Assembly: GCA_964016885.1 (NCBI GenBank)
Contig: OZ024747.1
Coordinates: 74,090,001-74,154,000, forward strand
Direction of reading: 5' to 3'
DNA length: 64,000 nt
From: Eledone cirrhosa
Lineage: Eukaryota
Positions 52,511 through 53,139 of the stretch are shown one piece after another; position 1 is the stretch's first letter, and every line of letters starts with the position of its first letter. The position numbers were made by a program, and so were the translations under genes. Under the pieces are notes generated by a model. It was not told the DNA's origin. It saw only the letters and a list, made by a program, of their open reading frames with translations, and did no database searches.

Positions 52511-53139
52511 ATAAACGGAAAAAATGAAACGAAATTTCATTTCTCACTCTTAGTCCGGCTGTTACTTAAATATAAGTATGTATACGTACATACATATATG
52601 TATACAGACGTACAGTAGTATGTATATATATATACATACATACACACATATATATATGTAGGTATGGATTCACAGAACATTTAATATAATGCTCGGTGTG
52701 TTTGTAAACAAACATCCCGAATTAAGCCGTACAGTGTCTAGCAACCATCGTTGCTCATTTGTTCAACACTGACAAAGGAACGCTGTACTAGTTTCAAGCT
52801 TATTAGTTATCGTCAGCAACGTATACTTTCCTGCCAGATCGTTGAACGTCTGAAGGTATATACTTTCCTTATGCATATTAACGGCTGAGCAGCCTAATTT
52901 GCATATCGAGTGAGTTAATTGGCCGGGGCACCGAAAACGATAAACGGAAAAAATGAAACGAAATTTCATTTCTCACTCTTAGTAATTCGGGATGTTTGTT
53001 TACAAACACACCGAGCATTATAATAAATATTCGGTGAATCCATAGTACATATATATATATGTGTGTATGTATGTATATATATATATATACATACTACTGT
53101 ACGTCTGTATACATATATGTATGTACGTATACATACTTA
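52511..53139. mobile_element. Diverged relative of the 472-bp hammerhead element (~1.1 units plus an inverted segment)
   Basis: Direct repeat of ATAAACGGAAAAAATGAAACG at 52511 and 52940, inversion at ~52983, same termini as the large array, (TA)n flanks. Confidence 0.88.
52780..52822 (-). ncRNA. Type I hammerhead ribozyme, variant of the array motif
   Basis: The reverse complement reads ACGTTG-CTGACGA-TAACTAATAAGCTT-GAAA-CTAG-TA-CAGCGT. Confidence 0.85.

What the first reader, a model, noticed from the sequence alone, without database searches (positions are those of the whole stretch)
52511..53139. Second diverged locus keeps the ribozyme with a compensatory change
Seen: the surrounding unit has diverged clearly, yet the hammerhead is retained. 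Stem I changes from ACGGTG/CATCGT to ACGTTG/CAGCGT (G-U swapped to U-G). The core changes only at the free position (CTGATGA to CTGACGA). GAAACTAGTA is invariant, and stem II has one mismatch. Inference: the RNA structure is under selection, so this is a dispersed mobile family rather than a local satellite.
Basis: partly seen in the sequence, partly recalled or inferred. Interest (0 to 1): 0.75.

Follow-up and report, generated by a model that had tools for sequence, protein, structure and literature searches.

The report
Decaying copy of Penelope-driven retrozyme family
This is one ageing copy of a small protein-less repeat present tens of thousands of times in this animal genome; it carries a predicted self-cutting RNA motif, was likely pasted in by a Penelope-type jumping gene, and its motif looks preserved by selection on the spreading lineages rather than on this copy, which has begun to decay.

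Summary
Observation confirmed; interpretation partly supported. A type I hammerhead motif lies at 52780-52822 (minus strand) in a 432-bp unit about 78% identical to the 472-bp array at 39576-44716. The family is dispersed: 28,387 core matches genome-wide, control 0. The pair of loci alone is weak evidence (30% of flanking windows are as conserved). Across subfamilies it holds: 4 of 43 ribozyme columns vary against 94 of 296 flanking ones (p=0.002), all at tolerant sites; the variable stem I pair is U.G, G.U or A-U in 90 of 93 copies. The G.U/U.G 'swap' is a subfamily marker, probably two routes from A-U. The stem II mismatch is ordinary decay (257 of 28,387), and single copies mutate in the core as fast as elsewhere. 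Insertions sit in (TA)n as two opposed arms ending at two fixed sites, one per arm (37 of 37): the Penelope 'tail' footprint. Units carry a U1/U2-like promoter pattern. Cleavage, transcription, circles and the partner element are untested or unfound. This scan noted the same family before on other DNA of this genome.

The parts
52511..52984 (-). Arm 1: one 432-bp unit plus 44 bp of the preceding unit; its 3' end (52511) is the 'long' fixed end, abutting (TA)n
52983..53139 (+). Arm 2: inverted, 5'-truncated copy (unit positions 219-376), no ribozyme; its 3' end (53139) is the 'short' fixed end, abutting (TA)n
52780..52822 (-). Type I hammerhead motif, U.G subfamily; predicted cut between 52786 and 52785 (GUA triplet)
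   Evidence: cleavage site inferred from hammerhead numbering
52807..52807 (-). G-to-A change that breaks the second pair of stem II (A.C); minority state, likely post-insertion decay
   Evidence: stem II +4.2 against -2.5 kcal/mol
52787..52792 (-). 6-base palindrome forming the 2-bp stem III; predicted to pair between two hammerheads
   Evidence: PMC4209133
52832..52920 (-). Likely snRNA-type promoter block: AATTA box 52916-52920, octamer 52897-52904, TCAG box 52883-52888, TATA box 52857-52862, predicted start at 52832
   Evidence: transcription not tested
52511..52566 (-). 56-bp 'tail' between the two fixed 3' ends (unit 377-432), present on one arm only
52496..52510 (.). (TA)n target, left
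53140..53210 (.). (TA)n target, right
38976..39581 (-). Sister insertion (G.U subfamily): inverted arm, 1.3 units, long end, one hammerhead
39576..44716 (+). Sister insertion: 10.9 x 472-bp units, 99% identical, 11 hammerheads, short end

Best explanation
This is a single, partly decayed insertion of an abundant non-coding hammerhead repeat (a non-LTR retrozyme) that was likely copied into a (TA)n tract by the enzyme of a Penelope-like element. Shown: tens of thousands of dispersed copies in several subfamilies; tandem units; two opposed arms whose outer ends fall at two fixed sites, one site per arm; ribozyme geometry kept between subfamilies and sister families; neutral decay of single copies, this one included. 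Inferred steps: (1) a tandem copy is transcribed from the U1/U2-like promoter inside the unit, probably by Pol II, reading into the next unit; (2) two hammerheads pair through the palindromic stem III and cut out unit-length RNA that holds the next unit's promoter; (3) this RNA probably closes to a monomer or dimer circle; (4) a Penelope RT/GIY-YIG protein nicks both strands of (TA)n, each DNA end primes reverse transcription at one of two fixed sites 56-60 bases apart, each product runs a variable distance across unit junctions, and the two join back to back. Selection acts on the copies that propagate. This copy has one hammerhead and a broken stem II pair, so it would likely cut poorly or not at all in cis.
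For: Dispersal: 40 scored hits at 96-100% on 12 contigs among 1433 candidates; 28,387 core matches, 23,593 flank-anchored, 8,007 with this subfamily's 5' stem I strand and an intact stem II; controls 0. Ends: of 55 two-armed insertions in 101 loci, 37 had one long and one short end, 0 had two of a kind, 18 had at least one end elsewhere (one of the 37 is a local duplicate); 110 of 135 classified ends are followed by (TA)3. This matches the two RT start sites that define the Penelope tail in vitro (PMC11167929) and the inverted 5'-truncated arm with a one-sided tail (PMC8557442). RT plus GIY-YIG elements are in the genome; one two-armed copy shows the same short and long ends (L104), and some copies are 98-99% alike. 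Lineage-level selection: 4 of 43 against 94 of 296 variable columns; pair I.3 paired in 90 of 93 copies against 50% if independent; five different stem III hexamers in sister repeats and Penelope elements, all palindromic. One template: opposite arms differ by 3.1% against 5.7% between loci, lower in 34 of 38. Circle hint: two arrays alternate ABAB between units 9-11 bases apart (L006, L162); 5' truncation points avoid no region and only 2 of 129 lie near the cut site. Promoter: a model trained on 8 U1/U2 promoters scores best just upstream of the hammerhead in all 4 repeat units tried (19.2 bits here, background 1e-5 per position).
Against: No autonomous partner found: no significant homology to the 3' ends of five Penelope families (best 1 of 100 shuffles in 20 comparisons), and no intact Penelope ORF beside the first 60 loci (only two weak fragments). 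No Rfam support; the conserved G10.1-C11.1 pair is replaced by U.U. The covariation at I.3 rests on few events (11 changes for 7 states on a tree whose bootstrap had not settled) and was not tested with R-scape. ABAB arrays can also come from DNA-level duplication, and the window's own array shows a partial 4-unit repeat that fits a later duplication better than a circle. The promoter model is small and hand-anchored; families C and D score only 7.3 and 11.8 bits, which background reaches often. In the one Penelope system studied in vitro, hammerhead cleavage was not needed for insertion, and 8 of 9 predicted frog retrozyme dimers did not cleave. No A-to-G editing excess in my sample (33 against 21, p=0.17).
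Confidence: 0.8

Rival explanations
1. Same Penelope mobilisation, but from linear read-through multimers; circles are not intermediates and the hammerhead serves only RNA processing or stability. Long arrays grow afterwards by unequal exchange.
For: Hammerhead mutants still insert in vitro and unprocessed RNA was the main substrate (PMC11167929). The window array has a partial period-4 pattern. Most insertions are 1-2 units long.
Against: ABAB arrays that keep fixed outer ends (L006, L162); arms overlap in unit position and are nearly identical in young insertions (0 differences in 5 comparisons); circles are the reported main RNA form of coral, mussel and axolotl retrozymes (PMC7229834).
Confidence: 0.3
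2. Mobilised by a LINE that targets microsatellites (the window holds several RT ORFs), as a SINE-like passenger.
For: Seven RT-bearing ORFs at 225-33602; 5' truncation and 5' inversion are also LINE traits (established knowledge: twin priming).
Against: Two fixed 3' ends used one per arm (37 of 37); the 5' start of one arm does not abut the end of the other as twin priming on one linear RNA predicts; no poly(A); hammerhead geometry shared with this genome's Penelope elements.
Confidence: 0.06
3. A minisatellite spread by DNA-level events (extrachromosomal circles, Helitron-like copying, segmental duplication), with the hammerhead a leftover.
For: Tandem arrays, one locally duplicated insertion (L135), neutral decay of copies, no Rfam hit.
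Against: Fixed ends, polarity, (TA)n targeting, and ribozyme positions spared between subfamilies that differ by 20-40% in the flanks.
Confidence: 0.06
4. This particular copy is kept by host selection as a functional ribozyme (the strong form of the first reader's claim).
For: All core residues are intact here and the promoter pattern is whole.
Against: It carries a stem II break found in 0.9% of copies on several backgrounds, private changes elsewhere in both arms, and has no second hammerhead; an intact core is expected for most copies of this age.
Confidence: 0.03

Closest known systems
Metazoan non-LTR retrozymes (Cervera and de la Pena 2020, PMC7229834, passages read; Li, Clavereau and Pollet 2026, bioRxiv 10.64898/2026.07.22.740005, parts 1-3 of 5 read)
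   Same: Non-coding, low-GC tandem units of a few hundred bases, one type I hammerhead each, thousands of copies as monomers to multimers, co-occurring with Penelope-like elements.
   Different: Units are at the long end (432-472 bp); U.U at 10.1/11.1; the two-armed insertion with one fixed end per arm is not described in the parts read; no homology to a Penelope pLTR was found here, whereas 24 of 57 frog families had TE homology; RNA not shown here.
Penelope-like elements and their non-autonomous derivatives (Craig et al. 2021, PMC8557442, passages; Frangieh et al. 2024, PMC11167929, parts 1-2 of 4; Cervera and de la Pena 2014, PMC4209133, parts 1-2 of 4)
   Same: Partial tandems, inverted 5'-truncated arm, tail on one end, two RT start sites, AT-rich or (TA)n targets, hammerhead with palindromic short stem III.
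   Different: No ORF; tail 56-60 bp against 30-40 bp; promoter pattern matches host U1/U2 genes, unlike the five Penelope 3' ends scored here; partner unknown.
Newt satellite 2 (snRNA-type promoter, Coats et al. 1994: paper not held; seen only as cited in PMC2220036)
   Same: Hammerhead-bearing tandem unit with an internal snRNA-type promoter read by Pol II; active as dimers (PMC7229834).
   Different: Different lineage and sequence; here the promoter is inferred from pattern only, and the insertion footprint is Penelope-like.

Membership tests
Type I hammerhead ribozyme | Conserved core residues C3-A9, G12-A15.1, U16.1, H17 | tested here: met
   triplet GUA
Type I hammerhead ribozyme | Stem I about 6 bp | tested here: met
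   6 of 6 pairs, one U.G
Type I hammerhead ribozyme | Stem II about 4 bp | tested here: inconclusive
   4 of 4 in the family (135 of 137 copies keep the G); 3 of 4 in this copy, +4.2 kcal/mol
Type I hammerhead ribozyme | G10.1-C11.1 closing pair | tested here: not met
   U.U in 136 of 137 copies; a natural U.U variant is reported and is the best-tolerated mispair (PMC3088659, passage)
Type I hammerhead ribozyme | Short palindromic stem III allowing a dimer | tested here: met
   duplex -4.8 kcal/mol
Type I hammerhead ribozyme | Match to an Rfam hammerhead model | tested here: not met
Type I hammerhead ribozyme | Loop I-loop II tertiary contact | not tested
   not examined
Type I hammerhead ribozyme | Self-cleavage | not testable with these tools
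   needs in vitro assay
Non-LTR retrozyme | Tandem non-coding unit of about 150-450 bp, GC under 45%, one type I hammerhead per unit | tested here: met
   432 bp here, 472 bp in the sister array; GC about 34-36%; only short low-complexity ORFs
Non-LTR retrozyme | At least two consecutive hammerhead units (Li 2026 criterion for an active copy) | tested here: not met
   one hammerhead at this locus; met by the array at 39576-44716, so the family qualifies and this copy does not
Non-LTR retrozyme | Expressed as linear and circular unit-length RNA | not testable with these tools
   needs tissue RNA
Non-autonomous Penelope-like element | Two fixed 3' ends with a tail on one arm only | tested here: met
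   37 of 37 classifiable two-armed insertions
Non-autonomous Penelope-like element | Variable 5' truncation, partial tandems, inverted 5' arm | tested here: met
Non-autonomous Penelope-like element | AT-rich or microsatellite target | tested here: met
   110 of 135 ends followed by (TA)3
Non-autonomous Penelope-like element | Autonomous RT plus GIY-YIG element in the genome | tested here: met
Non-autonomous Penelope-like element | Sequence similarity to the 3' end of an autonomous partner | tested here: inconclusive
   none significant against five families sampled from 50 of 150 scored (10,596 candidate) endonuclease hits
snRNA-type promoter | Host U1/U2 boxes in host spacing, start 30 bases after TATA | tested here: met
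   spacings 32, 26, 30 against 32-34, 24-27, 30-32 in 8 host promoters; 19.2 bits against 26-32 for training genes
snRNA-type promoter | Drives transcription; polymerase II or III | not testable with these tools
   octamer is shared with U6 promoters but sits 42 bases before TATA against 46-48

The most novel reading that the evidence does not exclude
These repeats are self-promoting RNA circles: each unit carries a captured host U1/U2-type promoter, is cut out by a dimeric U.U-variant hammerhead, and is reverse-transcribed round a monomer or dimer circle from both ends of one DNA break by a Penelope enzyme. The genome then holds a fossil record (two ends one per arm, ABAB arrays, same-template arms) of rolling-circle retrotransposition, a route proposed for retrozymes and Penelope elements but not shown in the papers read here.
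Probability: 0.4. Interest if true: 0.75.

Novelty: new variant of a known kind. Interest (0 to 1): 0.5.

Why it matters
How animal retrozymes move and what Penelope hammerheads are for are open questions in the papers read. This family gives exact predictions: the two priming sites, the cut site, the start site and a set of young candidate partner elements, so the Penelope-plus-circle model can be tested with the existing in vitro assay. The finding as written (one compensatory change in one copy) adds little by itself; it also shows why selection on such ribozymes must be judged between subfamilies and not from a single genomic copy.

Tried and rejected
Rfam scans: no hammerhead hit; the microRNA hits are on the TA/TG-rich stretch, far below gathering scores. 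Folding the isolated motif: no signal. Circular folding of whole units gives z -5.4 and -8.5 on 25 shuffles, but the TA/TG-rich palindromic stretch may account for much of it, so I did not rely on it. DNA search of the genome with the array unit returned nothing although the subfamily is abundant: a search artefact. Partner hunt: no significant match to five Penelope 3' ends; the pattern was mis-specified and only gave a looser count (29,453, control 64). RNA runs: no RNA holder listed; the four runs laid were contigs of unknown kind and show only presence and that the stem II A is a minority allele. Snap-back self-priming and classical twin priming: rejected because either arm can be the longer one and arm starts are unrelated. 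The cross-family alignment had wrong coordinates for two rows and was dropped; the family D rows used the wrong strand and were replaced; the haplotype count was mis-set and redone. The 'private departures' by region are inflated by flanking DNA and biased by core-based sampling; one search replaces them. Literature searches for cephalopod or octopus plus hammerhead and for retrozyme plus snRNA promoter listed no description of this family; the octopus repeat annotation PMC13282606 has no 'ribozyme' in its main text; supplements were not read and may list the family.

Full report
1. Observation. It differs from the array copy at 5 of 43 positions: both sides of stem I pair 3, the free core position 7, one loop II base and one stem II base. 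The surrounding unit is about 78% identical to the 472-bp array units. The span 52511-53139 is a two-armed insertion: a minus arm of 432+44 bp with the ribozyme and an inverted plus arm of unit positions 219-376 without it, both ending in (TA)n. The sister locus has the same build: a 606-bp minus arm at 38976-39581 and 10.9 units at 39576-44716. Rfam has no hammerhead hit and the isolated motif does not fold better than shuffles; the case rests on comparison.

2. Dispersal. The window lies in a 3.0-Gb animal genome (that it looks octopod is my recollection of its repeat content and the wording of earlier notes, not a tool result). The top 40 scored hits are 96-100% identical on 12 contigs. Core pattern: 28,387 matches, control 0; flank-anchored pattern that does not demand a core: 23,593; this subfamily's 5' stem I strand with an intact stem II: 8,007. 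These count units, not insertions.

3. Is the structure under selection? Not shown by the pair: 38 of 43 identical, and 30% of 346 flanking windows do as well. I sampled 137 copies from 77 loci on the first 26 Mb of one contig plus the window (13 overlapping loci were dropped before counting). Four subfamilies emerge. Their majority states differ at 4 of 43 ribozyme columns against 94 of 296 flanking columns (Fisher p=0.002), and the four are the two sides of pair I.3, position 7 and a loop base. Among 93 flank-ascertained copies, pair I.3 is U.G 45, G.U 37, A-U 8, U.U 2, A.G 1: 97% paired against 50% if the sides were independent. These copies are related, so this is few events: with the pair hidden, the tree puts A-U copies on both sides of the midpoint, one G.U clade of 20, and U.U and G.U copies at the base of the U.G clade (midpoint root, rough support). 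The 'swap' is therefore likely two routes from A-U. Stronger support comes from other repeats of this genome: families C (310 bp, L052) and D (L176) and three Penelope families have different stems yet pair, mostly keep U.U at 10.1/11.1, and show five different stem III hexamers that are all palindromes, the mark of dimer hammerheads (PMC4209133). U10.1.U11.1 is a reported natural variant (PMC3088659).

4. This copy is decaying. Private changes hit core positions at 0.68% and other motif positions at 0.84% (p=0.84): no selection on single copies. The stem II A is in 257 of 28,387 copies; by my count 70 of the first 100 listed are on this copy's background and 30 on others, about 1.2% of that background, close to the 1.4% G-to-A rate per site in the subfamily. 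It is under 1% of contig depth in one laid run and absent from three. It turns stem II from -2.5 to +4.2 kcal/mol. A small hitch-hiking lineage is not excluded: in L006 the broken unit alternates with an intact one, and it occurs in 7 of 43 copies among the hits chosen for likeness to this copy.

5. How it moves. In 101 loci, 55 insertions are two-armed; 37 have one arm ending near unit position 373-376 and the other near 432, none has two ends of a kind, and 18 have at least one end elsewhere. Single arms end at either site (23 long, 21 short, 10 other). 110 of 135 classified ends run into (TA)n. 5' ends are scattered; 2 of 129 fall near the cut site. A purified Penelope protein cuts and extends both DNA strands at AT-rich sites and starts at two internal RNA sites that bound the 'tail' (PMC11167929); inverted 5'-truncated arms with a one-sided tail are the standard Penelope layout (PMC8557442). 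The genome has RT plus GIY-YIG elements (clade not tested), and a two-armed one (L104) ends the same way. No partner was identified. Opposite arms are closer to each other than to other loci in 34 of 38 comparisons, so both likely came from one template. Two arrays alternate ABAB with 9-11 differences between neighbours and 0-1 between alternates, as a dimer circle would give; DNA-level duplication can give it too, and the window array's partial period of four fits that better.

6. Promoter. Host U1 and U2 genes have AATTA, TCAGT and TATA-like boxes at about -90, -57 and -30; U6 genes have an octamer at -76 to -78 and TATA at -30. A model from 8 U1/U2 promoters, anchored by hand, peaks just upstream of the hammerhead in this unit (19.2 bits; 1e-5 of 189,744 background positions), in the array unit (17.5) and, weakly, in families D (11.8) and C (7.3); three U6 promoters score 7 or less and five Penelope 3' ends show no consistent peak. 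The unit also has the U6 octamer, 42 bases before TATA against 46-48. Predicted start: 52832. Newt satellite 2 is the precedent (cited in PMC2220036; original not held). Transcription is untested.

7. Comparison and verdict. It works like, and by the testable features is, a metazoan non-LTR retrozyme (PMC7229834; bioRxiv 10.64898/2026.07.22.740005), behaving as a non-autonomous Penelope-like element; this copy fails the two-unit criterion for an active copy. My searches listed no description of this family; supplements were not read. Earlier notes of this scan describe the same family, ends and promoter on other DNA of this genome; I reached these results before reading them, and their RNA-editing lead was not confirmed in my sample. 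New variant of a known kind; interest 0.5, carried by the family-level footprint and not by this copy.

Noticed in passing
window 44708-45331: A second, unrelated palindromic element directly right of the array, in (TA)n, with arms of unequal length and a core-like motif with a long spacer in each arm; possibly another two-armed Penelope-type insertion.
   Followed up: no
window 225-33602: Cluster of RT-bearing ORFs, including two 1141-aa copies in tandem at 15801-19226 and 20401-23826; LINE-like, unrelated to the repeat.
   Followed up: partly
L052:1970-3030: Family C: 310-bp hammerhead unit, two-armed, inserted right beside a G.U-subfamily insertion; it also has a G.U pair at stem I position 3.
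   Followed up: partly
L176:1000-1700: Family D: hammerhead repeat with the same octamer-TATA spacing and two-armed layout but no alignable sequence.
   Followed up: partly
L091, L103, L108 (3' ends of Penelope families): Three Penelope families carry hammerheads with U at core position 3; in two of them position 8 is A, the U3-A8 covariation reported for schistosome elements.
   Followed up: partly
L195-L197, L225-L252: Host U1/U2 genes have a TATA-like box at -30 and U6 genes a proximal octamer at about -77, unlike the vertebrate layout (recalled).
   Followed up: partly
window 5515-5792, 45238-45421, 51926-52063, 53504-53824: Another dispersed repeat with internal inverted arms, next to (TA)n at several places in the window.
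   Followed up: no
L135:1293-5064: A whole two-armed insertion is present twice 2.6 kb apart, a local duplication.
   Followed up: no
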